Assembly (NCBI GenBank): GCA_905178155.1 | Contig: CAJINV010000001.1 | Span: forward strand, 14,942,142-15,006,141 | Reading direction: 5' to 3' | Length of the DNA: 64,000 bases | Source: Amoebophrya sp. A120 | Taxonomy: Eukaryota; Protista; Dinoflagellata | In this document: in pieces, positions 6,160 to 56,300 of the stretch | How the letters are laid out: each line of letters opens with the position of its first letter | Position numbering within the stretch: position 1 is the first letter of the stretch | The notes under the pieces: model-generated | Told to the model about the DNA's origin: nothing | The model's database searches: none | The model's input: the letters and a program-made list of their open reading frames with translations, nothing else | Program-made: the position numbers and the translations under genes

Positions 6160-8027
6160 TCACATCACACTTACGGAGACGCGGAATCGTTTCGGGTCCG
6201 TATCCCGGCGGTGCTCGACCGGAATCGGGTGTTCACAAGTTTCTTCCGGGTTTCCTAGATCCCTTGCCACTTGTTCCAGCGCGTGCCGAAACTTGCGTCC
6301 GGCCCAGAAAGACATGTCGCGGGGGATGGAGACGCGATCCCGCACGTAGCGCAAGGCCCGTGCGCTGTTCGGAGGAAGACGATCAATTTGGACCGCTTCA
6401 GGATCTCGCTCCCTGATCAGGTCCACGATCTGTGATTTTTGAAGTTGAGGTCTCTTCCTAAAACATTTGCATTTCGTTCTTGAACCAGATTCTAGCACAT
6501 CAGCTTGTCGGACCGTCATTCAAAGTCATCAGAGGGAAGGTTTATGTGTTTTGGTCATCAGAGAAACATCAGAGAACTTTGAAGACCAAAAACAACTATT
6601 TTCATCAGAGGAGGGCAGTGCGGAAACCTAGTTTACACTGCTGAGAGTGTCATCGACATTTGCCAGCTCTTTCAGAGGGAAGGTTTGTATGTTTTGGTCA
6701 TCAGAAGTCAGTGAACTTTGAAGACCAGAAACAATTTGTCTCATCCTTTCAAGCGCTGGCGTATAATTTGTACTGAGATCAGGAAAAACGACACTTTTGA
6801 TGTGTCAGAACCCATGCGCAATTTCTTTGTGTTAGTCATCAAAGTTGATCAGCGAACTTCGAAGACTTGTAACAAAAGGGACTCATCATGCTACAGTTCG
6901 TGAATTTAAACTTGGGACAATAAAAACGGAAGACCAATCACAACTCTTTGTACCTGTTGGCACGGTTCCCGCGCTGCGTGCTCTTCTACCAGCCTGGACA
7001 AGACGGCCCGCATGGCAAGATCAAACGCTTCCGACTTTCCATAAGGATTCGCACCAGCTACCTTTTCTCGGTGCCGCAGGACGCGGTACAGAATTTCCAG
7101 TCGCACGTCAGCAGGCTCGGGGAAGCAGTCCGACCTCACCTCAACGCCCTCCGGGATAGCGTCCGCGTCGCTCGCGGCACCATTCACCGGGTGGATTTTC
7201 GCATTTGCGTTCGGATGACAACCCCCTAATTGCGGCGGCAGATCGTGGACGTGCGTGTGGAAATCCGATTTCGTTCCGCGGTACACCTCTCGCGTCTCCA
7301 TCGCAGAGCACCACTTGTCCAAAATCGGATGCTCTTTCCGCAGCTGAAAGCCCTTGTAGTAATACAGGCTCGCGCACATCCGCTCCAAAAATGGTGCGAT
7401 CACACAGTCCGCGACGGTGAAGCTATCGCCTGCGAAGTAGGGACCGTTGCTCTTTGCCATGTGCGCTTCGACCTTTCCACAAACACCTTGAAAGTTCTGC
7501 CTCGCTTCCCGATCCGGGGCGTACGGATTACACAGCCAGTCGCACCAGGCGCGAAACAGCATACGCTCGAGCTTCCGACAGGCGATAATTGCCGGACTAG
7601 TGAGGCTCGCATTATTCAGCGCCCCGAATTCCTCTTCCAGTTCCTGTAGCACGTCATCCGAGTCAGTGACAAGATGCGTGATCTTCTTCGCGTCAGAAAC
7701 GTCGACAAACGCGAGGGCCGGAAGCATCCCAGAAGGAACGATTTTTTTATACCACGGCTCTTTCGCACCGTAGCAGAACATGGTAACTTTTCGCACTTCG
7801 TAGGGCACTCGCTTCTCCTCGAGCCACAGCCACACCTTTTGGCAGTAGGGACACCAGGCGTGGTTGTCGCGAAACAGCACCACCCGTGGCTGCTTCTGCC
7901 CGAACAAGCGCGCCGTCGCGTGGGCATTGGTAGTCCCGTTCACGCCATCTGGTACCTGGTACGCGCTCGCGACAATTCGCGCCAGCGAGTTCCAGCTGCG
8001 GACCAGCTGCGAGGAAGATCCAGACAT
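6160..8027 (-). CDS. Glutathione S-transferase family protein (CPYC type), 2 exons
   Basis: Motifs RDNHAWCPYCQKVWLWLEEK, VPSGMLPAL, TDSDDVL and GPYFAGDSFTVAD. GT-AG intron 6430-6953 joins ...PCQQ|IVDLIRE... in frame to the C-terminal exon (ALRYVRDRVSIPRDMS...RRDTDP). Confidence 0.9.
6529..6608 (-). ncRNA. Intronic box C/D snoRNA candidate, copy 1
   Basis: Minus strand: C box cTGATGA, guide TCTTCAAAGTTC-T, D' CTGA, C' TGATGA, guide AAACCTTCCC-T, D box CTGA; 80 nt. Confidence 0.7.
6672..6747 (-). ncRNA. Intronic box C/D snoRNA candidate, copy 2
   Basis: C box AGGATGA, guide TCTTCAAAGTTC-A, D' CTGA, C' TGATGA, guide AAACCTTCCC-T, D CTGA. Flanks form a 9/10-bp terminal stem (GCCAGCGCTT / AAGAGCTGGC). 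Confidence 0.75.
6805..6889 (-). ncRNA. Intronic box C/D snoRNA candidate, copy 3 (different D guide)
   Basis: Perfect C box ATGATGA, guide TCTTCGAAGTTC-G, D' CTGA, C' TGATGA, guide ATTGCGCATGGGT-T, D CTGA. Confidence 0.7.
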
Positions 8028-20201: not shown

Positions 20202-23200
20202 TCAGTCGGCCGCTGGGAAATCCGCCACACCGGCGTCTTCCTCCTCGACACTGCGACTGGGTTGCCGCGCCGCGATCTTTGGTTTGGCCGCGCCGGCCAT
20301 GTTGCGGGGCGCCGAGGTTTTTCTCTTTCGTGCCTCCCGGTTCGCGTGGTACTTTGGCAGGTGGTAGTCCGCGTCCCCAGGCTGCGGCTCCGTGATCTCT
20401 CCAGTCGTGCGATCGACCCACACCTTCGCGGACTTAGCCGGCTCGTCCCGATCGAGCGTGTTGCGGTGCACCAAAACACGGTTCTCTTCGCGGGGCAGTT
20501 CTTTCGCCACGAGGGCGAACATTTCCACCTCGGAGTCCTTCGGCGCACGTCGGTGCAATTCCTTGTAGGACGCGTTTTTCCTTCCGAGAAACTTCTCCAA
20601 ATACCGGGCCTCCACGATGCGAAACCTGTGTTCATCCGTCGTTATTTTCATCGATCTTCAAAACATCAGTCATCAAATTCCGCAACTCAAACACGAAGAG
20701 CATGCGAATATTGGAGTACAAAATTGGATACTAAGTTCGAGAGAATGAAAAACAAAAATCTTCGTACAAACCACAAAAAGATGAAGAAAATCATACTGTC
20801 GGCTGACGCGGCCGACCACGTAGGGAAGGACACCGTCGGTGCAGTGAACTTGCACTTCCTCGTTGCTCTCCATCACGACAATTTGGTTCAATCTTCCCAA
20901 CCCTGTCTCTTCGCATTCCGCGCGGATTTCCTGTTGTTACAGAAGAAGTACAAAATGCAACTTCCATTTCATTTTACAACAATGAGAAGTAAGCCATTCA
21001 CGACATGCTGACTCTGGGTGGTGTTGTGCGAAAAAAAATATTTGGATGTGTGTGGCTCACAGAATGACACGCATCAAAACGAAATTCTGAAGTAGAATAC
21101 CCGGACGAGCCACCCGTCCTTGCCCAGGATGTCCTGTTTCGTGATGCCCTTGGGCAGCGCCAGCTGGAACGCGCGTTGCCGCTGTCGCTCCACTGGGATG
21201 TCGGGACACGTGGACCACATCTTGTCCAGTCCCGGCTCGCTGGGCCAGCTTCGCGGCTTCCGGGTCTCGTCGTTCCCGGGGTCCGCGATGCGCTTCGACG
21301 CGATTCTCTTCGTGCTTTTGCGCTGCGACACCTCCGCGTCATCGTCGCGGAACGGATTGTTCTCGTGATGCACAGGCGCTACATCCGACTCCTCGTCGTG
21401 GGCACTACTCTTCTCGCTCTTGCTGTCCTCCCGATCGTCCCCGAAGTCCTCCTCCTCGACGACCTCCTTGCTACCCCGCTGCGACGCTTTGTCCGCATCT
21501 ACTCCTGCTTCGTCCCCCTCCTTCTCGCGGTCGCCGCCCTGGCTCTGCTCCTGGCTGCTCTCCAAATCCGCGTCACCCGCAGCCTTGCTGGTTCTTTTTG
21601 ACACGGGCGCAGCGGACACCTTGGACTGCTCCTCTTTCTCTTCCAACTCGTAAGTTTTCGCGCCCGGGATCAGGTCGCCGCCTGTAGTCAGTGAGGAAAG
21701 TGATTTTTTCGAAAATTATTCATCTTCGCACGGTCCGCCTCTTTTCGTGCAGATGAAATTCAATGGCTCTGTGTATTCCAAGCTGATGATTTCGATAGAC
21801 TCACCAGGACAATATCAAAAGTGAAGATGAAGTACAGGTACACCCAAAAGAAAACATACCTTTCGCGTTTTCCTTGATGAGCTTGTTAGCCTGCAGCACT
21901 TGCGAGGCTCGCTGGTCCTCGCGGTCGATGTTGGCCCAGTACACTTTCAGCACGTCGTTCAGCTGGTTCAGCACCGCCTCGATGTTCTTCAGACTTCCCT
22001 TGAACAGCACCTCCTCGTCGTACTGGCCGTGCGGCGGCTTGGTCAGCTGGATGTCCACGTCGTGGTTGTTCTTCACCTGCGCCACGCGGCTGCCTTTGGG
22101 CCCGATGATCAGCCCGGCGCAGTTGGCCGGCGCTAGCACCACACACTTGTGCACCCCGTCCTTCTCCTTTTCGACGTGCGGAAATGCCTCCTGCATCACC
22201 CGGCACAGCGCCCGGGTGCACTGCTCGATGGCGTTCTTCCACTTGCTGTCGCCTTTCTTGCCGTCTGCGTCCATGGGGCAGATCGACACCACGCGGTCGG
22301 TGCAGTGGTCATTCGTCTTGAAGGGCTGCGAGGAGATTTTGATGAACACGTGGCACTCCTGCCCGATTCTCCGCACCACGTCGCCGCGCTCACCTGTGGA
22401 TGGGAATAGAAAAAAATTTCCAGCGAAGATATAAATGTGCTACAAGAGGGCGAGAAAAAGTAGCCGCTGCAAGAACGCAACTCAGCATGTCGCTTCTAAG
22501 ACGAGTTGTAAGTACTTACCAATGACTCTCTGCACATACTGGTCCGGGATCAGAAGACGCAAACTATTCACAAGCCCCTGCGGATATCTCGGATCAAAAT
22601 TTTCGCCGTGCGTGTTTCTGCTGCCCGCCGGCGGATCGTAAGCACTGCGACCGCCCTTCCCTTCACGGTAACTGCTGTAAGCGCGCGGACGGTCTCTGTC
22701 GCCCTTATCTCGCCTTTTTGTTATTTTGGTTTTATTTGGGGACTCTTTTCATTTGAATGGATGAAGTAGCTGCTGGCTGCTGTGCTACTTTTTTTCTCGC
22801 GGATGACGTACAACTAGCGGCGCAGGGCGGTTTCTGTCGCTTCTAGCGACGCCGCATGGGAGGGACTTATTCAGTGAAGTTGTGGATCTGATTTTCCGGC
22901 GACAAGGGTTTTAATCTTTGCCCTGATCGACTCACGTCACCCACTCCAGCGTCCTCGTCTAGGCGACAAGTGTCGTTGTTTACGTTCCTGTGCACTGCCA
23001 CTGCACGGCGGTTCTTATTTTTTGCATGAAACCAGAACGAGGAAGCGTGTACAACGCAAGAGAAAGGCTAATGCCCCAATTTTCATCTCTTACCGTCGAG
23101 AATATCAAAGAGGATGAAAACGCTCTTATGTCAAATTTCGGATCCATATCTGAGTGGACCACGGGATTTTATCTACTTCGGCCTCTTCAGGAGCGATTGT

Positions 23201-23668
23201 TCTCAGTTGCTCATCAAGACTACTTCTACTGCTCGTTATTATTCACCGCCTTGAGGGAGTCATTGTCAACATGCCTGTTCTTTTCATTCCTGATCTTCCT
23301 CTGCACTAGTGGATTTTTGGTTCTTTGTTTTACCAACCCTACTGCCGGAATATCATCAGCCAGGTTGTACTTGTAGTAGTGGCCAGACTGTTCTTTGTGA
23401 TATGTCACGACCTTCGCAGCGAGCTATTCGTATGCGGAGAAAGAGCAGGAAAACTGTTATTATACCCGCCACGCCCATAATCGTCGCCTCGCGCATCGTA
23501 GTAACCGCCTTTGGATCCGCGCGACCGCGGGTAGTCACGGTCGTCCCGGTAGTTGCTGCCGTACCCGTCTTTGCCCCGCGGAGGTTCAGGGCCACGGGAC
23601 CGGCGCTTGTACTCCGGTCCGTAATAGTCGTCGTCGCGGTAGTCGCGCCCGCGCCGATAACTGCTCAT
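20202..23668 (-). CDS. KH-domain RNA-binding protein with R/G/D/Y-rich N-terminus, 6 exons
   Basis: KH motifs RLLIPDQYVQRVIGERGDVVRRI and CAGLIIGPKGSRVAQV, plus a third KH-like ILGKDGWLVREI. GT-AG introns 22714-23465, 22394-22519, 21682-21859, 20931-21099 and 20626-20796 keep the frame. Confidence 0.88.
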
Positions 23669-25153
23669 CTTTTTTCTACTCCGTTGCAGTGACGGCAACT
23701 ACTATTATTTCCCGCGTAGGTAAGTAAGTACGTGTCCGCGCACCGGTTTGTTCAGTGAGTAGAATTTGTTCTAGGTGTTGTAAGGTGCGTCGACAGTCTT
23801 CGTCTGCACGAAACGAAATCAGAATCACTGTTGGGTGCTGCTACTACTGCTTCTGTTATTTTTCCTGCAGCTCCGAGAAAAAAAATTACGTGTGGGTCCT
23901 GGATTCATCAAAAAAAGGAAGGCGAGGATGTGACTGGCACAGACAAAACAGCACGCCGGGTTTTGGTGATGGTTCCTTTATGTTGTTCGATACTCAACTC
24001 ACAATAGCGCGCCGTGAGTAGAGTAGTCATTTTGCGGCGATGAGAAAAATCTTCTTGTATATTTCCATCGGGTTTCATATTCTTTCAGAACATGCGCAGC
24101 ACAGCTCTCAACTTATTTCTGATCTTGACTTCATTGCTCATTCCGCACTTTCAGTTTTCGAACCAACGACGAGCTCCAGTCCCAGAGCAGCGATTTGATC
24201 CTCATACTCCAGTGTTTCTGATCTTGTTTTCGAAAGCAAGTAGATGAAGAACGGCACTTGAATAAAAAACAGATCTTGCGCGACCTAACACTGTCGCACC
24301 GGGAAATTACCAATTAGTCGCGGGCTGCGCAGTCACGATAAAGCATGGAACAGTTTTACTACAAAGACTTCCATTTCAGCCTAATTCCCGCGCAGTTGAC
24401 TGATAGATCGGGTCTGTATCAAGGCTCGCTATTCCACGAACAGGGGCGCCGAGAGAATATCTGAAATTTCATCGGCTTTCTCTGTCCGGCCGCAGCAATG
24501 TGTCGTAGTCGCGGTTTTTTGCCTGGCTTGGTCAGGTCAACATCAGAAGCAAAATTTTTCAGGCGTCCCGGAGAATCGGACGGTTGGGTGAGTCGTCGAT
24601 CGTGCTGGCAAAAAAAATCACTGGAAGCGAATCATAGAAAATAGTGACTCACAGAGAAGGTGAGCAATAAAGGGAAGCGTGGAGAGTGTGCATGATTGCA
24701 AGAAGGAAACTCAGCTAACACGAACGTCCTATTGCTTTCCTAGTGACGGCATCTACACATGTTTCATCTCGCTTTTCAATGCACAGAATCCTCAGTAGAG
24801 TTCACACAGGATTTAAAAATTCAGGAGCCCGTGCAAGGCTGTCGCCCGAAGCTTCCGTTGCACACGCGGTCTCCTCTGGTATGCGAACGCAGAGGCCCCC
24901 GCGCTGGCTTTACTTGCGAAGTACGACATGGCTCATGATCGCACTTTGCTAAAAAAACACACTATTGTAAGCCGGAGTACTTCTTCTATGGGCCTTGCAT
25001 ACTCATTAATTCACTTCTTCTAGCCTTACTGTAAAAAATAAAAGCGAGCGCACGCTTGTTTGCAATCGATTGTAAAAAACTGTGGTGTATCTGTGGTGTA
25101 TCTTCGGACCGGGACTGAAAAACAGACAAACGGGACATGGTGTACACTGCTCC

Positions 25154-26285
25154 CTAGGACTCGACTTTTTTGGCCGACCATTCCAGCAGCTCACCGATCT
25201 CTGTCGCCGTGAGGCCAGCACGATCCTTGACGAAGCAGGTGTCAAGCCCAGCTTTTTCACCCTTCTTTATCTCGTCGCGATCATCCTCGACAAGCATGCA
25301 GGGTCGCCCGTTCGCCAGTTTCAAACACACTTCCGCTTTCGAACTCCACTTCGCGCAGTCTTTCCGGTCGATATGCGTCTCCACCTCTGGTGCGAACTTA
25401 GTCCTGACAAATAGTTTTTCTTGTTTGGTTGATATGGTGATAGAAAGTAATTAAGCGTGCACAATTCGGTCTCATGTCCAACCAAAAAAAATTCACGACT
25501 GAGAGGAAGACTACTACTAACTACTGGTAGCTTTAGGTTTAGCAGAGACAAAAATCAGCGCAATAAAATCGTGCTTACTGCATTGCATTGAGGTCGTATT
25601 CTCTGGCATCCTGCATGCTCGTGTAGTCGTCGATTCTGGCGTACACATCGTCAAAGTGCGGCAACAACTTCGTTTTCTCCAAAATCAGTCACTATCCACA
25701 GCAACTGTGCCTGGGTTTGGATGAATGCCAATGCGTCGAGCAAATCTAAATCATCAATCTGGGTGATGCAAAAATAAACTGCCACGTGGCAGATACCCGC
25801 ACTCCTTCAAACCCAGACGCATTTGCATTTGATAATCGTATTGGCGCAACTAAACCCTTGGAACAGACGACCAGGGAACACCCGTTCGTTCGTAGTTTCT
25901 TGAAGGTCTTCTCCATCTCTGCAATCTGTTCCTTCCCGCCGAGACAATGCTCGTAGAATTTGCCTGTCGGAGGGAGTTAGCACAACATAGAAAGGGAATT
26001 TGGATTGCTAGTACGAGTTTGAAAACCTCCAATGGTAACGACAAGATCAAGGGTCGGGCGAGTGGTACCTTTCATTTCCTCGTCCGCCTCGAAGCACTTC
26101 TGGATCTGCCCTCTCTCTGAGAGCGCGTAGGGCCCATCAAGAAAGTTCCCCCGTCCGAGCGTGACAAAACCGGCGAGGCACTTGAAGACGTGACACTGGG
26201 AAATGGTCTGATCAAAGTCAAAAACTATTACTTTCGTCTTCGGAACCTGCCCGCCCCGTGGCGTACCTTTCCGCGAGCCTGGCAT
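25154..26285 (-). CDS. HAD-superfamily phosphatase-like protein, 4 exons
   Basis: Motif I VIVFDFDQT, motif II VVCS and motif IV LVEDD. GT-AG introns 25964-26068 and 25404-25578, plus a 147-nt non-canonical intron around 25690-25836 joining GLVAPIR|LILEKTK. Confidence 0.85.
25693..25834. mobile_element. Degenerate introner/MITE, TIR family A, in the HAD gene
   Basis: Ends TATCAAATGCAAATGCGTCTGGGTTTGAAG and TATCCACAGCAACTGTGCCTGGGTTTGGATG are inverted and match the TIR of the 45647 and 51134 elements. Flanks are ACGAT/GTGAC (eroded TSD). In-frame stop inside. Confidence 0.75.
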
Positions 26286-27169
26286 GATGGTTCGAGCAGA
26301 ATAGCCGCCTTTGCGGAATTGAGAGAAGAGGCAAGCTCAAATTGTGTGGCGGCCACGTAGATGCTGTGCAAAAACACCTAAGGCCCGAGTGAAAGCGTTA
26401 TTAGGATTCAAGCAGTGTCATCGCGGTTGTCGTGTGCTTTGTCTGAAGTGAGTCCCACAAGCTCAAATAACTGCTTTATTCAGAAGACAAATTTGCAGTG
26501 CAATATCGCAGAGTAACACACCGTGGCCGTGCCTGTTTTCGGTATAATCTTTTTTGTTGCAGAACCACTGCCGCTTCAGTATACCTGGATATCAAGCTCG
26601 CGCCGCTAGTGCTAAGGCTAGGATTTCTCGCTTACGAAAGCAATTTGCACAAGTTTCAGACAGACCGCATTTTTGGAATCGGTTTGAAGCAGAGAGGAAG
26701 ACCATTTCGGAACTGCGATGCGTTTTTTCAGGAGTTACCGCTTCACGACTCTGAGCCGACTTCCGATTGACAAGAGATTTCTGCGATGGACAAAACCCCC
26801 AATATTATACACTGTACCAGTAGATCCCATACGAACACAAGTTCAGTGAATCGACAGAGCCACCCAGGGCATGAAAACACGCCAACAGCAGCACTCACAT
26901 TTTGTTTTTAGTTGGAGTCTAAGTACGCAGCACTCTGGTTTTGTGTCAACATGGTCAGGTTTGGTAGAAGTTCAGTATGAATCCATGATTCCCTTCAAAT
27001 CGGAAAGGCTTGCCTTCAAACCCGGTAACATCACTCTTATCCCACAAAGGAACAATTCGTCGGCTTCGTATTGTGTATTAAAATTCCACACGCATAACTA
27101 CCGAAGATTGGACAACATTCCGAAACAACACGAAGGTTCTCATCAGGACAGATGATGAATCAGACAAGC

Positions 27170-29121
27170 TTATTCTTCCTCTTCCTCCTCTTCGGCGTCA
27201 CCCATCTCGGCCATGAGCTTGGTGCGAGCGGTGGCCTATTACAGTGAAAAGTGCCCCCCACCCCTGAAATTGTAGCAAGGATTTGTGATGCAAAGTTTCC
27301 AAATGAAAACTTTTTGTCATGCATGAAAGGAGTATGAACCTTTCTGAGGCAAGGTCTAGGCGTGTGTCGCAGCGCTTGCATGACAAGCGCCGCTTTTGCT
27401 GGGATCTTTTGCAATACAAATTTTTGCTATTCACGATCGGAAATCTGTGATGCTGATAGATGCAGTAGGGCGAATGTTTCATTTGGAAAGGTTTGCAATA
27501 CAAATGCTCCGAACTTCGGGGGTGGGGGCATTTTTCCTCGCGATATGGCCAGCTTCTGCTTGACGCGGTCCTTGCGCTGGGCGTTGGACCGCTTGATGCA
27601 GCGGGTGTAGCTAGTTCCCTTGGAGGTTTCGATGGTGTTTCCCTTGCGCGTGTTGGTGATACCCGCGCTCTCCTTCTTCACGAACTTCGGGTCCTCGCGA
27701 ATCTTGGTGTGGCACTCCTTGTACAAGTCCTCCAGGCCGTCCGCCTCAATGTCGTTCTCAATGAACGCGGAAAAAGCGACCTTGTAACCTGTTTTTAGTG
27801 TTTGGAAAGGGCGTGTTTTCGCTGGTGAGTCGGAAAATCCGTGTGTATACACTATCTTTATGTTCTTGCACTCTCTCATCTCCAATAGCAAAAGTTCTCA
27901 TTCTCTTCCAAACAACTCATGCAAAAAAAAACCGAGACACATCTGTTGACGTGAAATGTCGAAAAGAAGTATTAAATCGAGAAGAGTTAATCGCAAAATC
28001 AAGTACGTTCCGGATCCTCCTCGGACAGCATCTCCATGTACTCGGAGACGTGGTTGCCCAAGATGCGCTCCAAGTGCGCCGGGGCATCGTACTCGTAGTC
28101 CTGACCCTTCTCTTCCGGCTCCTTGTAGCCCGGGAACTTGGAAACGGAGTGGGGCACGTGCAGGCCACCGTCGACGGCGCCCTTCAGCATACCGAACACG
28201 CGGGAACCTGGAATTGGTTTTTTGAGGAACATAAATTCTTGTCCTACCGTCAGCACGCAGGAAACAGGAACAATTCCTAAACGAAACTACCGACAAGTCT
28301 AGCGATATTCTTTTCCTAAACCGCGGATTCGGATTGGTGCAAGAAATACAAATATGCACCACGCCGTCACCTACGCTGTAAAGAAAAAAAAAATATGTAC
28401 CCGGAATGGTGCGGATGAGGCCGACATCCAGGATGCACTTGAACGGGCGGCGCTCGTTGTCTTCCTCTTCGACGTGGAATTCCTCGGCGGTGCACTCTTC
28501 AACACCCTCAATGGAGTCTGCCAGTCCGACGATATCCAGGGCACGGCGAGCGATCAACAGACCTGATATGGTTTTAGTGTTTTTTTACCAGACTATCATG
28601 TGTTCCGCATTGGTATCTGCGGCCGCGACGATAGCACAGAAAGAACCTTCAGTGCACCCCATAAGTAACCATGAAACTAATTCACAAGAGCCACACTGCT
28701 CTGGCCAGTATCCGAACTCACTCTCTTCCATGCAACAGAGCCACTACCTAAACTGCTTCCGATTCTAAATTTCCTAGATTAGGTAAAAACACAAAAATGT
28801 CAAGCGAAGTTGTATACCGGTAGCGTAGCCGGCGGCGTAGTTAGTGTGGCCGCACGGGACGCCGTACTTGCCGAGTTCGGAAGACATAGCCTGGCACAAA
28901 ACCTTGTCACCCTGAATGGTGGCGTAGACAATCTGGCAGATCATCTTCTTGTTGGTGATGCGGCACACCAAGCGGTACTTCGGGGTGTTGTACTTGTTTT
29001 TGTCCTGAGCGACCATCTTGCGACGGGCATGGTAGTCGGTCTTACCCTCGCGGCGGCGGCGGTACTTGGTCTGCAAGCGCTTGTAGTAAGCCTTGTTCTT
29101 CTGCACCTTCACGAACGGCAT
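27170..29121 (-). CDS. RPL5: 60S ribosomal protein L5 (uL18), 5 exons
   Basis: [47 protein letters not shown] introns 28563-28817, 28208-28400 and 27789-28006; a fourth intron 27236-27549 (GC-AG compatible, TIR element) restores the tail [23 protein letters not shown]. Confidence 0.97.
27237..27545. mobile_element. Introner/MITE, TIR family C, in RPL5
   Basis: 309 bp with TAT...ATA ends, an imperfect ~70-bp inverted repeat (GAAAA.TGCCCCCACCCC...TTTCCAAATGAAA) and a perfect 5-bp duplication tggcc at 27232-27236 and 27546-27550. Confidence 0.9.
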
Positions 29122-38516: not shown

Positions 38517-40148
38517 TCACTGCGCCGCTGCTGCTGCGCTCTTCAGCTCGAGCGCTCGTCGCTGCTGCGCACGGTCTTTCTCGACCATGCGAGTCAGAAA
38601 TAGTTCGCCGGCTCGGTAACTGCTTCGCACCATAGGGCCGCTGGCTACCATGTCAAATCCTATCTCCCGCGCCATCTGATCATAGGCTTCAAAAACCTCG
38701 GGCTCGATGAACCTGATGTATGAAGATACGGAAAAAGGTCGCGATAAAGTCATTGTTTTTACACTTCGATCATAGGAATTCGCACTCGCAATGCGGTGCT
38801 GTCGGGTGCATTCGGCTAGCAAGAAACAAGACATGCGAATTTCAATTCAGCAAAAACTTGCTTCCAAGCGGCATCTGACAACAGTGTCCCATCAATTTCA
38901 TATGTTGTTCGATAAAACAAAATACCTATCCACGCGCATGTGCTTTTTCGTGGGCTGCAGGTACTGTCCCAGGGTTACTGCCCGCACGCCGACGCTGTGC
39001 AGGTCGCGCATGGTCCGGTAGATTTCTTCGTCTGTCTCCCCCAAGCCGACGATGATGGAGGACTTCGTGATGATCCCGTTTTTGCCCTGCTGGATTCGCT
39101 TTTCGTTCTGCTTGTTCACGTGCTCCAGCACCGACATGCTCTGTTTGTAGTTCGCCCGGCGGTCCCGGACCGTGCTGTTAAGTCGTTCTACCGTCTCGAT
39201 GTTGTGCGCGAACACGTCCATGTTCCCCTCGAGGGTGATGTCCACCAGTTTCAAATCGCCCCGAAAGTCTCCCAGCAGGGTTTCCACCAGCACCTCCCCT
39301 GTGGCCGTGCTGTGGCCGTCTTCCATCAGGCTGTTGGTCACCGGTCGCCGGATTTTCTTCACATTTTCGACCACCTTCTTGATGTGCACCGCTCCGAAGT
39401 CCATCAAATCGTCCCGGTCCACGCATGTGATCACCACGTACTTCAGCTGGTCCCACTGCGCGATCGCATTCGCGACCCGGGTGGGCTCGTCGAACAGTTT
39501 GGTGCCCTCCTCGATGCCCTCCGGCCTCCGCGCCGTCTTCACACTGCAGAACCGGCAGGCGCGCGTGCAGGTGTCCCCGAGGATCATCACTGTTGCGGTG
39601 CCCTCGCCCCAGCACTCGTTCAGGTTCGGGCACTTGGCCTCGACGCAGACCGTCGCGAGCCCGAGGCCCTTCAGCGTTTCCTTGGTGTCCTTCCAGTTCT
39701 CCCGGGCTTCGGGTGTGCGGTTAATGTTTTGCATCCGAAACCAATTCGGGAGTTTCGGTCGCGGCTTCCCGCGCGTGGGAAGTATCACATCCTCTTCTTG
39801 TTCTCCTTCTATCGAGCTTGACGCCGTGGCTCCTGCTGCACAGCCGGAAGACGGCAGTGGCTCGGAGACGGGCGGCAAATCAGGCGCCACTGGTGGAAGG
39901 TTTGGGGGCGCGACGCTTGAGGAGGAAGACTGCGCCGGTGCAGCGGCTCCCGACTCGGAAAATCTAGTGGGCTTCGATGTGGAAGATGTCCATCTTCGGG
40001 GTTGGTATAATTGGTTTGCAGGACTGCAAGCGGGTGAAGATGCGAACCACCCGGGTCGCGAGGAGGACGAGGTGCTGGGGTGGGAAACATTTTTCCGGTA
40101 CGCCGACCGCACGGCGGCCGAGTTTCGGAACCGAAGTGCTTGCATCAT
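38517..40148 (-). CDS. LIAS: Lipoyl synthase (radical SAM), organelle-targeted, 2 exons
   Basis: [12 protein letters not shown] auxiliary-cluster motif, [25 protein letters not shown] and RSSY; GT-AG intron 38713-38925; long S/R/P-rich N-terminal extension. Confidence 0.96.
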
Positions 40149-41280
40149 CGTGGTTGTTCGCCAGCGAACAGTGATATTGTTCCAATTGTTGTGCTGATGA
40201 AACTACACAACTAGGCTGGTGGGGAGAAGAAAGTAGTGAAAAACAAGGTATTTTATTCAGGTTATATTTTGTGTCGTAAGTGTGCAATCGAACCGGAAAA
40301 GATCGCACTCCCGTCGAAGAGCTGCTTCTCCTGCTCCTCTCGCAATTGAAACTAGGAAAAAAAGGGTATCGATAGGTAGTACACAGGGGGGGACGTACTT
40401 ACACTGGATGGTAGGTGATAAGGAAAGTTGATTGAATCCAGAAAAAACCGCCCGTAATCTTGACAGAGACAGAAGCCAACTCAAAATACTCTAAAGTTCT
40501 AGGCTCTCGTCGTGAGCTAGTACCGACTTGGAAATTTCGAAAGGTGGACGAGTAGGTTTTTTTGTTGGTGTACGATGCAGTTTCTTGCTCAAGAAAATGC
40601 TACCGACTTTTCTGTTGTGCAGCAGATTTTTCGTACTTACGTAGACACACTTGAATCAAAACATGAGATCATGCTAGACCGAAAGAAGTACAGACTGATA
40701 AAGGCTTTTGTGAACGACTTTTGTTGACCAGAGTTGAGTACTCAAATCGATTTACGAACGGCCTCGATTGCTCTACTGTGCCTTCAGCCTGAGCGCAGCT
40801 TGGAGCAAAGCGTCGAATAAATGCTTCCATTGATTTTTCCGGTCGCGGAACTTTGTTTTGTGCATTTTGTTGTCGTGTTTCTTTCACAAATTTTCCGGGT
40901 TTTTTTGTTGGGGATGGGGGAGCTATCTGTACGATGGAAAGGGAGGCCGCAAGTTTTGCGCAAGTTCTTTGAGGCTGTCACTATCCCAACCGGAATCCGT
41001 AAAGAAACATGACACCAAATGAGCCACTCGCTGCTTGTTTCGCGGCCTTACCTACATATCAGATTGGTGCATCCACGACGGCTCTACGAAAAATGCAGCG
41101 ATTGTTCTTACGACTCTAAATTGTTGATACAGTGTGGTCTAGTTCGTTTTGTTGAAATTGGTCTATCACAACTTGTTTCAAATTTCCTCGTTTATAGCAG
41201 CTCCAACGTCGCTAGATGTAGTATGTAAAATCTTTAGATTTGGTCACGCGTGTGACAGCTCTGGTAATTAGTGAAACAAC

Positions 41281-44566: not shown

Positions 44567-46672
44567 TTACGACGTCGTTTTCGCGACTCCGAAGGTACTT
44601 GACTCCAACACGTTCGGCGCGAACGCCTGCCCCGACGCCACTGTGCGGCGCAGTAGTCTTGATAGCGTGTTCAGCTTACTCATTTCGCCGAGCCTCCGCT
44701 CCCGCGCCCAGTTGTTGCTAGTCCGGGCCACTTGCGCAGCCTTTTCAATTTCCGCCTCGTAAAAGGCCATCATGTTTTCCTCCTTCTTGACGTCTTCCAT
44801 TTTGTGCGTGAAAATCCTCTGTGGGCCGAACTTCCAGGGCTGCAGAAACGTTTTTCGGACCTTGTAGCGGTCCCCGAGGATATCTTTGGCTTCGGCCAGT
44901 TGGGTTTTGGACAGCAGCTGCAGGTGCTTCGACGGCTGGTATCCGTGTCCGTGTGGGTCGTCCATGGCCAGGAAGGGCTTTACCGCCCCGCGCATGAACT
45001 TCGCGGTTTTGTTTAGGTCCTTCACCTCCGGAATCTTCTGGTTCTGCAGCCGGTACGTTGTACTGCTATCCTTCGAAAGGAGGACGGCGGTCTGACTCTG
45101 CGGCACCTGTTGAGAGGGGAAGGAGAGAAATAGTAGATGTAGAAGATGGGGCCAAGCTTACAATACACACGAAAAGGCGCGGCGCGCGACCCTGCTACAA
45201 GGTGGCGCAAAGGATGAGGGCGGCGGGCGGCAGCGGACGCGGACGCTCGCTGCCTCCCCCGCGGCGTTTTGGAAATAAAAACGCAGCGGAGGAGGAATCG
45301 AACCCCTGGGCGTCACCGCCCCCCGCGGGTTGAAGCCGCGTCCGAGCACCAGCCCGGCTCACCACTGCCCTGAGCGGATATACAACCTAAGGAAAAGCCT
45401 TCACCCGGGTAGCCAGAATAGCTACTGCTAAAAACGGCATTCGGGCAAAAAAAGCGCACCATATCTTTTTTTGAGGGTATTTATTCGTAAAAAAGAAAAA
45501 AAAACCTACAAGTAGATGTACCTTCTCCCCGCCAATGACGCCTACCGTCTCGTTCGTTTCAAAATGGCCATAGGGGTTCATGGCCACTTGCCTTTCCGGG
45601 TGCGTCCGCTCCGCTAGGTTTATTGGCCCGCCGATCTTATCCTTCGTATCAAGTGTAAAAATGTCTGGGTCTGGAAGGTGTGATGCGCATTTCAGAACAC
45701 AGAAAAATCTCTCATGCATAGGCAGCAAAAGTTGCCCATTTTCTGTCACCAAAGTCAGGGATTTGTCATGCAGATTCGGCATTGCGAACGCTTCTCGAAA
45801 CCTGTGATGCTAGAGCTTCCATGCCAGACCTTCTGTGTCATGCAAAAGCAGCATGATTCTTCCAGACCCAGACATTTTTACATTTGATACTTCGCCGTCT
45901 GCTTCCATTTCCGCCCTGAGGTGCGGTTCGCTTCCTGCTGCGAGACAAAGCTGTCGGTGGGAAAGCCGTGGACGTCGAACGGGAGATCCAGCCCCGGGGT
46001 CGCGCTGGAGGAAGCGGAAGATCCCAGCACCAGGCTCGACGCGCTGCCGCCAGAGGGGGACGGCGTCTGGCGCTTCGTGGGGGTCTCAATTTGCGAGGAT
46101 GCGGTAGGGGAAACGATCGGGGAGGGCGCAGTAGTCGCGGTTTTAGCGGACGTAGGGGAGGGGGCGGCACCTGAGAAAATGTTGGAAAGTAAAAATTAAG
46201 AGCGACTTTTCAACTCATGGGATCATGATCAGCAAAACTCACAAACTATTTTTTCGGAAAAAAGTAAGTACATTCATCCTTGCTGGGTATAGGATGGCAG
46301 TACAAGACAGAAGTGATCAAGAAGTTGGAGTTTTACTACACGCTAATCAATACCTTTTGCTTGGTCCTTGCTGTCGTCCTCGTCCTCGGCTTTGGGCTCG
46401 ACTTTCTTCCCCTTTTTTTCCCAAATATCGTCCGCCCGGGTTAGCACTGCAAACCTCTCGGCCCGCTGTTGCAGGAAGGCTTCCACGTCCCGCTGTCCGC
46501 GTTTCTTAAACTGGTTGGTCTGCTCTTTTAGCCATCGGTCGCTACGCTGGCCGTACATGGAACGGTACTTGCCGCACCGGAATTCCCAGTTCTTGAACTG
46601 CTTTCCAGCCAACATTTGGCCTTCGCGCAGCTGGACCTCCGGCCCGGACTCGACATGTTGTCCGCGACCCAT
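44567..46672 (-). CDS. Hypothetical protein, at least 4 exons; host of tRNA-Sec and an introner
   Basis: ATG at 46672 (MGRGQHV). GT-AG intron 46171-46353, 248-nt non-canonical intron around 45643-45890 and GT-AG intron 45107-45521 give one continuous frame to the stop at 44567. Confidence 0.8.
45277..45281 (-). terminator. Pol III oligo-T terminator of tRNA-Sec
   Basis: TTTTT immediately after the discriminator base on the minus strand. Confidence 0.7.
45282..45368 (-). tRNA. tRNA-Sec: tRNA-Sec (selenocysteine, anticodon UCA)
   Basis: 87-nt 9/4 cloverleaf: acceptor GCAGTGGTG/CTCCGCTGC, 6-bp D stem CCGGGC-TGGT-GCTCGG, anticodon arm CGCGG-CT TCA AC-CCGCG, long variable arm GGGCG-GTGA-CGCCC, 4-bp T stem GGGG-TTCGATT-CCTC, discriminator G. 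Confidence 0.96.
45647..45889. mobile_element. Introner/MITE, TIR family A
   Basis: 243 bp; 31-bp TIR TATCAA(A/G)TGTAAAAATGTCTGGGTCTGGAAG with 1 mismatch; 5-bp duplication cttcg at 45642-45646 and 45890-45894. Removal restores QTAK|DKIGG. Confidence 0.93.
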
Positions 46673-50300: not shown

Positions 50301-52597
50301 ATCTGCGAAAGAAGTCAACAGCCTTGCACGGATCAACGCCTCTTGGATTTGCGCCAATGACAAGTGTTTTCGGCCCATCCGCACATTCTCTTCGATCGTT
50401 CCGGTGACGACAAAAGCCCGCTGCGGACAGTAACCGACGTTACACGTCGAAAACTTAATTTTTCCGCTGGTTGGGCACTGCTCGCCGAGCCAGGTCAACA
50501 GCAAAACCGTCTTTCCCGAACCCACAGCGCCGACTACGCCGATCAGTTTGGATTGCGGCGGCAGGGTGACGGAAGCATCAGTCAGCGCAACAACCATCGT
50601 CGTCTCCACTCCTGATGTGCTGACCAGTGTTTCGTCTTTTTTCGCAACCGCCGATGAGGTTATCGTTTCTTTCTTTGCATCAGATGAATTTTTGTTTTGC
50701 GCGGCTAAATCCCCGGACTTTGTTGTGCTTTGCCGCTGCAACTTCACTTCCACATCGGTCATCGCGCAGGCCTCCGTCGTAGCTGTTCCTTCGTCCATTA
50801 ATTTTCTGTATTCCTCCCGCTCTGGCAGGTTCAAATACTTCTCCAAACGCTGCAACGTTTGCACAAAGACCACCATGTTCACGACATTTATGGGAATCAG
50901 GACCATGGCGCCCCGCATCCCCTGCAGCACCGCGAGCACCGGAAACACGAGCTCCACGGTCAAGGGCTCGGCTCCGTCGTGCCAGTAGAGATACGTTGTG
51001 AGGGCGAACACCGCCGCGAGGACGGGCAGACACCGGCCTAAGTTACTCCCGAGCACCTTGTACTGCTGCCACAGTTCGATGGCGCGCGTTTCTTTGTTCC
51101 GAAACTCCTGCAATTTGTGGAAATACCTACCCTTATCAAATGCAAAAATGTCTGGGTCTGGAAGAGTCGGGACTTGTCATGCACATTTTGCATGACCCGT
51201 GAGGTCTGTGATGCTGGTGCTAGCATCACAGATTTTTTGAGAGCTTCTTGATGCTGATTACGCATGAGAGATGCCCTCTCCGCGTGCCAAGAACTGACTC
51301 CTCTTGCTGCTCATGCAACACAGATATTTCTAGAATCCGCAGACAGCATTACAAGTTCCACTCTTCCAGACCCAGACATTTTTGCAATCCATAACCCTCC
51401 CAGCACGCGTATTTCACGCCCCGGATGTTCGCCAGCGCCTCCTATGGAAGCGTCAGGATTGAAATCGACAAAGTTGAAATAATTCCTCATGCAAAAATTG
51501 CAAGGCATGAAGTGCCTCTCTTGCAGGCATGGCAAGCGAGGCCGACTGCCAGCCTGTTTGGGGTCTGCGATAGAGCTGCTAAAGTAGCATGACAAAAGAC
51601 GCCTTCTGTCCCTAAACAGCATAACAAACAGGATTTAGACGGTGCCGAAATTTGTCATGCACCGCTGAGAAATGGGGCTTTTAACTGGTATCGATTTTAT
51701 GCATTACAAGTTATTTCAACTTTGACGATTTCAATCCTGACGCTTCCATACCTCCCGTAGGCACTGCAGTCTCCCGCCGGCGTGCACCACGGCCTGCGCC
51801 TCGTATTTTCGCGAGGTGATCAAACGATGGAAGGACACCCCGATGCCGCAAAGCACGAACAGGACGGTCCACACGCCGACGATGTCAAGGAGAACCATCA
51901 GGTAGGCTGACCCGACGGTCAGGGAGACGAAACTGCTCGGGATCCAGCCGAAGACAAAGCCGACGAGATTTGCCTTGCCCAAAATTTCCACAGAAATCAG
52001 CATCTGCGCATCCGCGGCTTTCGGCGCGGGCGTTGCGGCGGGTGGATCAGGTTTATTTTTGCCTTCGTTTTTGGTACCTGATGTTGCAGTTGTAGCAGCG
52101 GGAGCACTGCCAGTATGATGATCCTGCACGCGCTGCATCTTCCACACGATCAACGCAGAAAGCATGCCCTGGAGTTTCGTCCAGAATTTCGCGACCAGCA
52201 CATCGTTTCCGTGCAGCCAGCAGCATCCCTCAAAAAGGATGGGGCCGACAATCGCGAGTAGTATCAGTTCCAGTCTCGGACTCTCCGCATTCATCTCTTT
52301 CAACACAAATCGCACGGCCTCTGGTCGGGCGATCACCATCACCAATCCCTGCATCGTGCCCCAGAATAGGCCGCGAATCACCAGCCCGCGGGTCATGCGC
52401 CAAACCGTCTTCGGTAAGTTTCCCCCGCATTCCTTCAGAACCGGTAGCGTTTCCCGAAGAAGCTTTTCACTGTCTACATCCAGAAGATGGTTCACATCGG
52501 GGAAGTCGAGACTGCCCTCCTTGTAGTTCTTCCAGATCACCGGCGCGACGTCGGTCTTGAAGAGCACATCGAAAATGCGCGAACAAAAAGGAGCCAT
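47340..52597 (-). CDS. ABC transporter, ABCC/MRP-like (TMD-NBD-TMD-NBD), 3 exons
   Basis: NBD1 GAVGSGKT / LSGGQ / ILVADDPL; NBD2 GPTGAGKS / LSAGE / IVLLDEP / IAHRL. Removing two TIR introns gives CLREALANIRGVKYACWEGRYFHKLQEFRNKE, matching the ABCC TMD1 IR.IK.YAWE region. Confidence 0.93.
51134..51393. mobile_element. Introner/MITE, TIR family A, in the ABC transporter
   Basis: 260 bp; TIR TATCAAATGCAAAAATGTCTGGGTCTGGAAGAGT versus TATGGATTGCAAAAATGTCTGGGTCTGGAAGAGT; 5-bp duplication accct at 51129-51133 and 51394-51398. Confidence 0.93.
51443..51750. mobile_element. Introner/MITE, TIR family B, in the ABC transporter
   Basis: 308 bp; 40-bp TIR TATGGAAGCGTCAGGATTGAAATCG(A/T)CAAAGTTGAAATAA; 5-bp duplication cctcc at 51438-51442 and 51751-51755; compatible with a GT-AG intron 51439-51751. 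Confidence 0.93.
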
Positions 52598-53343: not shown

Positions 53344-56300
53344 CTACAGGGTAACAACTAACAGTATGACTAGACAGCAAGCGGGTAGAGTGATTAAGAA
53401 TGCAAGGGGTTTCCAGATTTCCACTAGCAAGCTCCAAAAATCAGCCAGGACCAGGAGCAAAGAAAACATGATGACCCACCAGACCGCGAGCAAAATTACT
53501 TCCGGCTTCCGCACCTGCCGTAAGAAATACTCTAGAAACGTCTTTTTTCTTCGTGATCTGTTCTGGAGCTGGTTCGCCCCCCTGCTCGTATTCGCACTGC
53601 GCGTGTTCGGAGTCACTGCGAGAGCCGGATCCCCGATGAAATTCCCCGCTGCGTCGTACAAGTGCGCCGAAAACGGGCCCGGCGCGGCTTGTCCGCGGTT
53701 TCGCAAAAACCGGGCTCGGCTCGCCCCAATGAGTAGCGGCTGGTCTTCCTGGTCTGCCTCGAAGTTGTACGCTGCATACGGAGACGAGTAGGGAGACGAC
53801 GCTTGTGGCGCTGCTGCTTGATTGCCGTAAAAACCATACTGCTGCTGTTCTTGCTGCTGTGCGTATTCTGCTCCCGATACTAAGTATTCTTGGGGGTCGT
53901 ACCCAACAACGCCACTTCTAAGAGCGGGCTGTGGCACGGACGACCTGCTTGGTTCCCCGGGTTGCGAGGGCCTTTTAGCCGCGCCAGGCTTCTGATTTTG
54001 GAACTGCTGCTGAGGGCGAAATTCTTCTGCGGGTCTTGACGGCGGGCCAGAGAGCGCCTGGGGCGGAAGCGAAGACCGCTGCGGGTCTGCTGGCTGTGAG
54101 CCTCTCTTGTCCGAAGGAAGTTTGATGTTTCCTGCGCTGCCAAGAGCGCCGACCTGCAGCTGGGGAACTGGTGGCGGGGTCCGTTGCTGCGGCGTCTGGG
54201 AGTTGTTCTGGCCCATCACAAGTGCTGGGGCCGGTGGAACATTTTTAAACGTGGTTGGAACCGCCGCGTCAGAGCCTGCTCCAGTCGTTCCAAAAACTGG
54301 ATTTATCACATCACTTTTTCCGCCCTCCACACCCGTCGGTGCCACGACACGGTTTTGCGGGAGCGGACTGCTGAGTCGCTGCGGCTCGCCCAGTTTTGGT
54401 TGCAGGAATTCGTCAATTATGGCAGTGGAAGGCGAGCGACTTTCCAAACTGCTCGATGCCTTGTTTGTTCCGCTCATCCGCTCCCCTTGCTGGTCACCTC
54501 CCCGGCTTTTCGCAGCAGACGAGCCAGCACCCAAGCGCTGCTCGAGACTGACCCCGGCGCCAAACGTGAACGACGCACTCAGCAGAGACGACTCCGGCGA
54601 GTCACTGCGCACCGACGCGTTTTCTCCGCGGCCACTCTCCTTGCTGTCGCGGACGGTCACGTAGTCGCTTGCATGTGTAACAGACGAGGACCCGCGCGCC
54701 GGGAAAGTCCGGCTCGAGTTTCTGTTCACTGGAGCTTTTGGCTCAGATTTTTCGTCTTCCTCGTCTACTTCCAGAAAATCGTCCGGAAAGAGGACAGCCT
54801 CCGCGGCAGACATCAATACTGTCGTTCTGCGCTCGAGGAGGTCCTCTTGCACAACCTCCGAAGCTGCCGAACTAGTTCCTCGTACATGCGACTCCCCGGA
54901 CGACGACGGCCCAGAGGAGCGTTGGCTCCCAACAACGTTCGAGGAACTCGTCGCCATGCCGGCGGCCTGACCAAAAGCCGGCCCGCTATCTCGCAAGTTG
55001 TCCTGCGAGTCTTCTTCCGGCGGGCCGTTCTCGAGAAGGTTCCTCGCGATCGCGGACTGACCACGAACAGGCACTAGTTCTGGCACAGACGCTATCGAGT
55101 CGGAGGCTCGCAGGCTGGGCATCGTTCCGATGGAAGATGAATTTCCCCTGTCAACTACAGCAACGTCAGCGAAAACACTTATCTCGCTGTCCCGGAGGAT
55201 ATTATCATCGCCAGCACCCTCCTCGAAACTATCCGCAGGCGGGCCCTCTTCGAGGAGGTTCTTTGTTACCAGGGATTGTCCTCGAGCACCGACGAGATCG
55301 TCCTCCACCTGGGACGACTTCGTGGAGTCTAGTCTTGCAGGCAATAAAGGCGGTGGACTTTTCCTAACATCATCCAGAAAAATACTTTCGCCCTTGCTAC
55401 TGTTCGTTCTATTGCTCGTTGAATGGTTCCTATCTTCTCGAAGAGCTGCGACAATGCTCCCTGCGCTGTCGCGCGCGTCCTCCAGTCCATTAGCTGCAGG
55501 TGGACCACCAGTAGCCAAAATGCTTTTCATAACTTCCGACTGTCCACGAAAGCCGACCGGAACGCTACTCTCCTCGTCGTTGGATTTCTCCGGATCGGAG
55601 TCGTCCTGCCGGCTCACGCGAAGCACGTCTCCGACCAGGCGAGGGGATCCCTCGGGCGCTTTCGGCGAATTCCTATGATCATCAACCGAAAGATGATTCC
55701 CCGGGCTGTCTCCTAAAGCAACTCCGCTGCCGGCTGTCGCGCGATCGGGTACAGCATTTCCGCTCGCAAGAAGCACGGGCGAAGTTAGCCGCGCACTCGA
55801 ATCCGTGGTCAGCTGCTGCACAAAAACCTTCCCGCTGGCCTGGCTCCGGGCACTGACTGCCTCGATCACCTCTTCGTCATCGTCCGTCCTGCGCACCACT
55901 GAGGTCAGCGGCATGATGCGGATCATTTGGTTCTCACTTCCCGCCGGACCAGATTGACTTGACGGGCTGCCTCTACTGAGCTCTGCGCCCTGGCTGTTCA
56001 TGTTAGGTGGAAATGAGTTTATCTGCGAAAAAGCACCACCCGTGGCCGATTGGTCAAGTTCCTGGCCCATAGCTGTGCTTCCATCTTCGACAACCATCGT
56101 GGTTCCGGGAATAAAGTATTCCCTTTGATTCTTCTGTTGCTGTCTATTTCGAGCCAGCACTTCTTCCGAGCGCGCCATCACGGTCGTGTAGCTCAGCTCG
56201 TTCGGGCGCTGGCTAACATCGTGCTCGCTGCGCGAGGATATTGTGCTCGCCGTCTCCGGTCGTGTTCTATCCAAATCAAGCTGGGACCCACTCAGTTGCG

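What the first reader, a model, noticed from the sequence alone, without database searches (positions are those of the whole stretch)
25688..25839. Eroded introner constrains the splice point and cannot be GT-AG
Seen: the two duplication copies have diverged (minus strand ACGAT upstream, GTGAC downstream). The downstream AG is followed by an in-frame TGA and the element contains an in-frame TAG. The simplest junction is ...ATA CGA|CTG..., so the cut falls within the shared GA, giving intron ends GA-GT, AT-TG or TT-GA. The element is shortened to 142 bp, has decayed TIRs and contains a 14-bp palindrome CTGCCACGTGGCAG (25779-25792). Inference: an old insertion that is still excised without a perfect TSD, perfect TIR or canonical dinucleotides, which constrains the mechanism.
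Basis: partly seen in the sequence, partly recalled or inferred. Interest (0 to 1): 0.7.

Follow-up and report, generated by a model that had tools for sequence, protein, structure and literature searches.

The report
Worn hairpin intron narrows cut site
A worn-down mobile element inside a predicted enzyme gene of a marine parasite is missing from the assembled transcript at a junction without the usual splice signals, and its mismatched flanks narrow the cut to three positions, a small clue to a known but unexplained kind of splicing that likely relies on an RNA hairpin.

Summary
Real feature, known class. The spliced frame equals an NCBI protein named Amoebophrya sp. A120, and 145 of 145 homologues covering the junction have no indel there. 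The insert is a short, old copy of a TIR family with 5-bp duplications (125 of 150 perfect). This is the non-canonical intron class of Farhat et al. 2021, whose cut positions that paper calls unknown.

Corrections: being unable to be GT-AG is generic (77 of 80 oriented intact copies). The TIR stem is still strong (-38.7 kcal/mol; 25 of 149 relatives are weaker). The palindrome is at chance level.

What it adds: both cuts lie outside the TIR, 2 nt of repeat suffice, and a reverse-transcription artefact is unlikely. Support is one contig, with no raw reads. The scan noted a similar case in another dinoflagellate genome (e1-7693921, unchecked).

The parts
25689..25837 (-). Non-canonical intron, 147 nt, in one of three registers: 25689-25835 (TT..GA), 25690-25836 (AT..TG) or 25691-25837 (GA..GT)
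   Evidence: joint in run X4 contig; ends listed
25693..25834 (-). 142-bp non-coding TIR element (MITE-like), old short copy of a TAT...ATA family
   Evidence: first 78 nt 73% alike to L111, E 5e-7
25799..25834 (-). 5' TIR arm (about 36 nt), begins TAT + 7 nt + AAA
   Evidence: motif described for A120 in PMC7789003 section 11
25693..25728 (-). 3' TIR arm (about 36 nt), predicted to pair with the 5' arm
25835..25839 (-). Upstream copy of the 5-bp target duplication (ACGAT); positions 1-2 are in the mRNA, position 5 is not
25688..25692 (-). Downstream, diverged copy of the duplication (GTGAC); position 5 is in the mRNA, positions 1-2 are not, and using them would give a TGA stop
25746..25748 (-). 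In-frame TAG inside the element (codon 145 if retained)
25779..25792 (.). 14-bp palindrome, chance level, no role shown
26069..26285 (-). Coding exon 1 of a 234-aa HAD-like protein (P0001)
25964..26068 (-). Canonical GT-AG intron 1 (105 nt)
25836..25963 (-). Exon 2 (3' border 25836-25838)
25579..25688 (-). Exon 3 (5' border 25688-25690)
25404..25578 (-). Canonical GT-AG intron 3 (175 nt)
25154..25403 (-). Coding exon 4 to the stop codon

Best explanation
This is an old TIR-transposon insertion in a conserved coding exon that is absent from the assembled transcript as a 147-nt block with non-GT-AG ends, and it is likely removed from the pre-mRNA by the unexplained Amoebophrya non-canonical splicing route, guided by the predicted TIR stem. 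Shown: the junction in one cDNA contig, the restored conserved frame, the family link and the 5-bp duplication habit of the family. Inferred: (1) the element inserted after the split from A25 and made a 5-bp duplication; (2) in the transcript the two arms pair and bring the two duplication copies together; (3) the machinery cuts at a set distance outside the stem, taking 1-3 nt of the upstream copy and 4-2 nt of the downstream copy, without reading dinucleotides and without needing more than 2 nt of repeat; (4) because the register is steady, the intronic parts of the two copies were free to mutate, including a change that would give a stop if the cut slid upstream. The enzyme is not identified. 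I favour a second, structure-reading machinery over the ordinary GT-AG spliceosome.
For: Junction in X4 with no added letters and no 99%-alike record over the insert. The frame built from those joints equals P0001. No indel across residues 106-122 in 145 of 145 homologues that cover them, out of 150 examined; R115 is the commonest residue, 99 of 145. Cuts after duplication position 0 or 1 give a stop, positions 2-5 give the conserved peptide, and the contig's letter at position 5 excludes the last. The stem is retained: pair probabilities 0.95-1.0 over most of arm positions 9-36, and 0.77-0.78 for the terminal four, while 5 of 5 canonical introns give only -5.5 to -7.1 kcal/mol. Family duplications have even base composition and copies sit in coding sequence in both orientations (31 and 48 of 83, 4 unclear), which fits a symmetric signal rather than a linear motif. 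Four in-frame GT-AG and ten GC-AG pairs nearby are not what the contig uses. Class, DR/IR anatomy, undetected U1 snRNA and unknown borders are in PMC7789003.
Against: The RNA evidence is one contig from one run whose RNA status is a guess by the tool. Contigs drop rare forms, the one raw-read run laid gave 0 reads, and X5 and X6 do not cover the junction. The NCBI model may rest on the same data, so it is not independent. A test for RNA-level selection on the stem was null: G-U against A-C mismatches in the sense strand were 77 against 82 in 83 oriented copies, and sense duplexes were no stronger (41 against 41). The whole-region fold is only z = -2.15, with 6 of 200 shuffles as good. Junctions of intact siblings were not measured in RNA. 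Exclusion of the TIR-flush cut rests on a single C/T letter that U-to-C editing could mimic; PMC7789003 Table S5 reports possible editing near 4% of A120 intron ends.
Confidence: 0.57

Rival explanations
1. The ordinary U2-type spliceosome, with relaxed end recognition and the stem standing in for U1, removes it as a lariat.
For: Nearly all spliceosome proteins and most snRNAs are reported in A120, with U1 snRNA undetected (PMC7789003). GA is listed there as a rare donor (GA-AG 1.5%), and one register starts GA. Non-canonical tunicate introns are described as spliceosomal (PMC11282704 passage).
Against: No register ends in AG or AC. The 5 neighbouring introns keep strict GT-AG. Family copies occur in both orientations with unbiased duplications. 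No CTRAC branch motif was sought in the insert as such; one looser YTRAY match lies mid-element.
Confidence: 0.2
2. Removal is homology-driven (copy-choice or repair-like joining at the duplication), so the crossover falls wherever the two copies match, here the shared GA, and there is no fixed register.
For: The junction lies in the only 2 matching letters, and 125 of 150 family copies keep a perfect duplication.
Against: Two letters is very little homology for what appears to be the only assembled form. Single and double mismatches in other copies fall at all five positions (17 copies). The copies were found by an exact pattern, so the sample is biased to young ones.
Confidence: 0.1
3. The junction is a reverse-transcriptase skip across the hairpin (falsitron), and the gene is in fact disrupted.
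For: A hairpin with repeats at its base is the known signature. Such products reached 70% of cDNA reads, and 22 of 57 had no direct repeat (PMC8240250 passages). All RNA evidence here is cDNA-based.
Against: The repeat is 2 nt (3-16 nt in that paper, where breaking a repeat abolished the product). No retained-form contig was laid. Retention would cut the protein at residue 145, yet the downstream exons are intact, 61 of 112 residues identical to the A25 orthologue, and keep the LVEDD motif, while the insert itself is heavily diverged.
Confidence: 0.07
4. The element is cut out of the DNA (transposase-like programmed excision) in the stage that expresses the gene, so the RNA never contains it.
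For: TIR plus one duplication copy is what precise DNA excision would remove. Orientation independence and the lack of G-U asymmetry fit a DNA-level signal.
Against: PMC7789003 reports no transposase in A120. A sixth, under-90%-alike record over the 5' arm in X4 suggests family sequence exists in that library.
Confidence: 0.06

Closest known systems
Non-canonical introns (NCIs) and introner elements (IEs) of Amoebophrya sp. A120 and A25 (Farhat et al. 2021, PMC7789003; abstract, passages, sections 11, 12, 16 and supplement part 3 of 5 read; figures not held)
   Same: Same organism label on the encoded protein; non-GT-AG ends; terminal inverted repeats starting TAT + 7 nt + AAA; 5-bp direct repeat in the family; cuts 1-5 nt from the IR (legend of Fig. 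S23). The intron is already implied by the public gene model.
   Different: The direct repeat is down to 2 of 5 letters and the perfect terminal IR to 4 nt, so it fails the paper's strict IE definition. Because of that, the border, which the paper's Fig. 3 legend calls unknown, is limited to 3 of 6 positions. None of the three end pairs is among the motifs named in Table S4.
Nonconventional introns of Euglena (PMC12501133, abstract and outline; PMC11282704, passages)
   Same: Works alike: non-GT-AG ends, a terminal stem set a few nucleotides inside both cut points, TSD-like repeats, probable MITE origin, unknown machinery.
   Different: The N3CDG / CH'GN5-6|R signature is absent in all 3 registers. 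The stem here is about 36 bp and 1-4 nt from the ends; the lineage is unrelated.
TIR DNA-transposon introners in general (PMC12130899, passages)
   Same: A non-autonomous TIR element with TSD that makes new introns; Amoebophrya A120 is named there as rich in them.
   Different: That survey checked for consistent splice sites and treats GT/GC/GA/AT and AG/AC as the usual ends; this family carries no splice dinucleotides. The superfamily and transposase were not identified here.
Falsitrons, reverse-transcription artefacts (PMC8240250, passages)
   Same: Hairpin with short repeats at its base, non-canonical junction in cDNA.
   Different: Only a 2-nt repeat, no retained form assembled, and removal is needed to make a conserved protein.

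Membership tests
Amoebophrya A120 non-canonical intron (NCI) | RNA-supported intron whose ends are not GT-AG | tested here: met
   (one contig, depth 124)
Amoebophrya A120 non-canonical intron (NCI) | Lies in the A120 genome | tested here: met
   spliced frame identical to P0001, named Amoebophrya sp. A120 by NCBI
Amoebophrya introner element (IE), strict definition | 8-20 nt inverted repeat at the two ends | tested here: inconclusive
   perfect for only 4 terminal nt; a perfect 9-nt run at arm positions 19-27; 29 of 36 positions can pair
Amoebophrya introner element (IE), strict definition | 3-5 nt direct repeat overlapping the borders | tested here: not met
   2 of 5 letters match; filed as a degenerate derivative of an IE family, not a strict IE
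Amoebophrya introner element (IE), strict definition | A120 IR motif TAT + 7 nt + AAA | tested here: met
   5' arm fits; 3' arm has AAC
Amoebophrya introner element (IE), strict definition | Belongs to a repeated family | tested here: met
   2 siblings in the window, 147 full copies in 165 loci of the metagenome collection
MITE / TIR DNA transposon | Fixed-length target duplication in the family | tested here: met
   5 bp perfect in 125 of 150; lengths 6-9 in 0 of 150
MITE / TIR DNA transposon | Cognate transposase and superfamily | not tested
   no whole genome held
U2-type spliceosomal intron | GT/GC-AG ends | tested here: not met
U12-type intron | AT-AC or GT-AG ends | tested here: not met
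   no register ends in AC or AG; minor snRNAs reported absent
U2-type spliceosomal intron | Excised as a lariat | not testable with these tools
   needs intron-end sequencing
Euglena nonconventional intron | N3CDG ... CH'GN5-6|R signature | tested here: not met
   0 of 3 registers
Falsitron | Direct repeat of 3 nt or more at a hairpin base | tested here: not met
   2 nt; hairpin present
Falsitron | Absent from direct RNA sequencing | not testable with these tools
   none of the 14 listed runs is described as direct RNA
HAD-like hydrolase (host gene) | Pfam match above the curated cut-off | tested here: inconclusive
   PF00702 E 7.5e-5, 23.6 bits against cut-off 26.4; DxD and DD motifs conserved in 4 of 4 aligned (motif roles recalled)

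The most novel reading that the evidence does not exclude
Amoebophrya has a second, non-spliceosomal splicing machine that measures from the base of a TIR stem and cuts at a fixed register inside the target duplication, needing neither dinucleotides nor repeat homology. Old copies with diverged duplications like this one are natural mutants that would map that register genome-wide.
Probability: 0.3. Interest if true: 0.75.

Novelty: new member of a known kind. Interest (0 to 1): 0.4.

Why it matters
About two thirds of A120 introns lack GT-AG, and how they are removed is open. Perfect duplications hide the cut point, and the hairpin-plus-repeat anatomy is also the signature of a cDNA artefact. 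This copy gives a partial answer to both problems: the cuts lie outside the TIR within three positions, and removal appears complete with only 2 nt of repeat, in a gene that needs it. One locus settles little. The value is the method, which existing genome and RNA data could extend to many old copies. In five full-text searches I saw no paper that maps the register this way, but I read only listings and passages, and Roy et al. 2023 (Curr Biol) was not held.

Tried and rejected
Palindrome as a signal: rejected, chance level. Canonical sites nearby: 61 in-frame GT/GC-AG pairs exist across exon 2 to exon 3, of which 14 keep both flanking motifs (4 GT-AG, 10 GC-AG); all 14 lose the conserved LILE stretch, and the contig uses none. 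Pseudogene: rejected; the 2 coding differences in X5 (1 silent, 1 replacement) say nothing. Raw reads: X12 laid 0 reads; X5 and X6 miss the junction. Empty-site allele: no HAD orthologue in the 165 loci; the record behind L021 is not held for search; no genome for the window. Viral collection: 0 matches to the TIR pattern. First open-frame test of element+3/+4/+5 was not discriminating (p 0.26 and 0.08, n = 89). The Markov version gave 31 of 33 same-strand cases for +5 (121 tested, 75 below margin, 13 strand clashes), but this shows only that copies sit in coding sequence, not that they are spliced. G-U asymmetry test: null. Extension of the stem into the duplication as a family rule: not supported (35 and 35 of 125 complementary, both in 6). 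Slight excess of GT-AG-compatible duplications when unoriented (17 of 125 against 10.7 expected, p 0.038) vanished when oriented (3 of 80). Reading the register from other diverged copies failed without orthologues or RNA. RNA junctions of the intact siblings in the window remain unmeasured.

Full report
Observation. The minus strand shows a 142-bp element at 25834-25693 between ACGAT and GTGAC, inside a coding exon. Read through, the frame meets TAG at 25748-25746 and TAG TGA at the far end. The 14-bp palindrome at 25779-25792 is there, but the window has 4 palindromes of 14 bp or more against 1-5 in each of 10 shuffles.

RNA test. Fourteen runs were listed for 24900-26500; four were laid on 21500-27200. 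X12 (raw reads) laid nothing, and X5 and X6 cover only the last exon. X4 (assembled contigs, RNA by the tool's guess) gave 6 joints. Five are GT-AG. The sixth joins 25688 to 25836, skips 147 nt and has 2 letters that fit both sides. The contig positions leave no room for added letters, and no 99%-alike record covers the insert. This is one contig from one run; contigs show presence, not absence of minor forms.

Host gene. The frame built from those joints is 234 aa and identical to P0001, an NCBI protein named Amoebophrya sp. A120, so the intron is already implied by the public model. That model may share data with X4. It is HAD-like, below Pfam's cut-off. The A25 orthologue is 60% identical and has the same residues across the junction. 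Of 150 homologues cover residues 106-122 and none has an indel. Retention stops at codon 145; downstream exons remain 61 of 112 identical to A25 against 67 of 99 upstream.

Family. Two intact siblings lie in the window (45647-45889, 51134-51393), each with a perfect 5-bp repeat. One non-repeat stretch is 80% alike to the window, so this is a related but distinct genome. Pairing arms gave 150 full copies (147 + 3). Of these, 125 have a perfect 5-bp duplication, and the other 149 are 240-481 bp long against 142 here. The sample is biased to young copies by the exact pattern. The focal arms score 34 and 24 bits against 49-54 for the siblings, and share T14-G15-T25, seen in 0 of 298 other arms: an old copy, probably of an older subfamily, with a likely but unmapped internal deletion.

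What is generic. Of 125 perfect copies, 108 cannot be GT-AG in either orientation, and 77 of 80 cannot in the inferred sense orientation. PMC7789003 gives 65% non-canonical introns for A120. The title claim is therefore true but ordinary. The stem is not lost either: -38.7 kcal/mol against a family median of -46, with 25 of 149 weaker, and -5.5 to -7.1 for five canonical introns.

What is specific. With a perfect duplication the cut could be at any of six positions. Here positions 1-2 of the mRNA come from the upstream copy and position 5 from the downstream copy, so the cut follows position 2, 3 or 4. The intron then holds 1-3 nt before the TIR and 4-2 nt after it, and neither cut is flush with the TIR. 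Cuts at position 0 or 1 would give a stop, so the divergence could be fixed only if the register is steady (inference). Position 5 is silent, so a minor flush cut, or editing of that one letter, is not excluded. Four in-frame GT-AG pairs nearby are bypassed.

Mechanism. Copies lie in coding sequence in both orientations (31 and 48 of 83, orientation from a Markov model trained on window ORFs) and duplications have no base preference, so the signal is likely the symmetric TIR. Against a simple RNA-stem story, G-U and A-C mismatches are equally common in the sense strand (77 and 82); the stems may be far above any threshold, but no RNA-level selection was shown. I put stem-guided removal at a steady register by a non-GT-AG machinery at 0.57, a relaxed spliceosome at 0.2, homology-driven joining at 0.1, a cDNA artefact at 0.07 and DNA excision at 0.06.

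Literature seen. PMC7789003: abstract, passages, sections 11, 12, 16, a supplement search and supplement part 3 of 5. PMC12130899, PMC12005148, PMC11282704 and PMC8240250: passages. PMC12501133: abstract and outline. Roy et al. 2023: not held, not seen. PMC12005148 notes that other Amoebophrya strains use GT-AG, so the class is confined to part of the genus. Earlier findings: none near this place or alike in sequence; one unchecked note of a similar hairpin intron in another dinoflagellate.

Verdict. A confirmed, ordinary member of a known but mechanistically open class. It is a useful natural mutant that limits the cut to three positions and weakens the artefact reading. Interest 0.4.

Noticed in passing
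window 51443-51750 and 51134-51393: A second TIR family (308 bp, perfect 5-bp repeat) lies 49 nt from a sibling of the focal family. Removing each plus 5 nt gives a 1582-codon open frame on the minus strand; one other of the nine combinations tried (+3/+4) is also open. The second family also occurs in L014, L027, L057 and L069.
   Followed up: partly
window 45647-45889: Intact sibling (243 bp). The frame test could not tell +4 from +5; its RNA junction is unmeasured.
   Followed up: partly
L061:1-302 and window 27237-27534: 80% identical non-repeat match about 1 kb from the HAD-like gene, but the HAD orthologue is not in the fetched loci.
   Followed up: partly
window 25799-25835: A sixth, under-90%-alike record of run X4 has a loose end at 25799, probably another copy of the family in that library.
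   Followed up: no
window 6529-6745: Two near-identical units about 140 nt apart (34 nt at 94%, 38 nt at 84%), probably a local tandem duplication.
   Followed up: no
window 56300-56463, 39470-40061, 40866-41019: Short inverted repeats (15-19 nt arms) without TAT...ATA ends; scores are within the range of shuffled controls.
   Followed up: no
L134, L153, L159, L055, L088, L004: Family copies with strong arms but 0-2 of 5 matching flank letters, some looking shifted by one. They are candidates for the register test if RNA of that genome is available.
   Followed up: no
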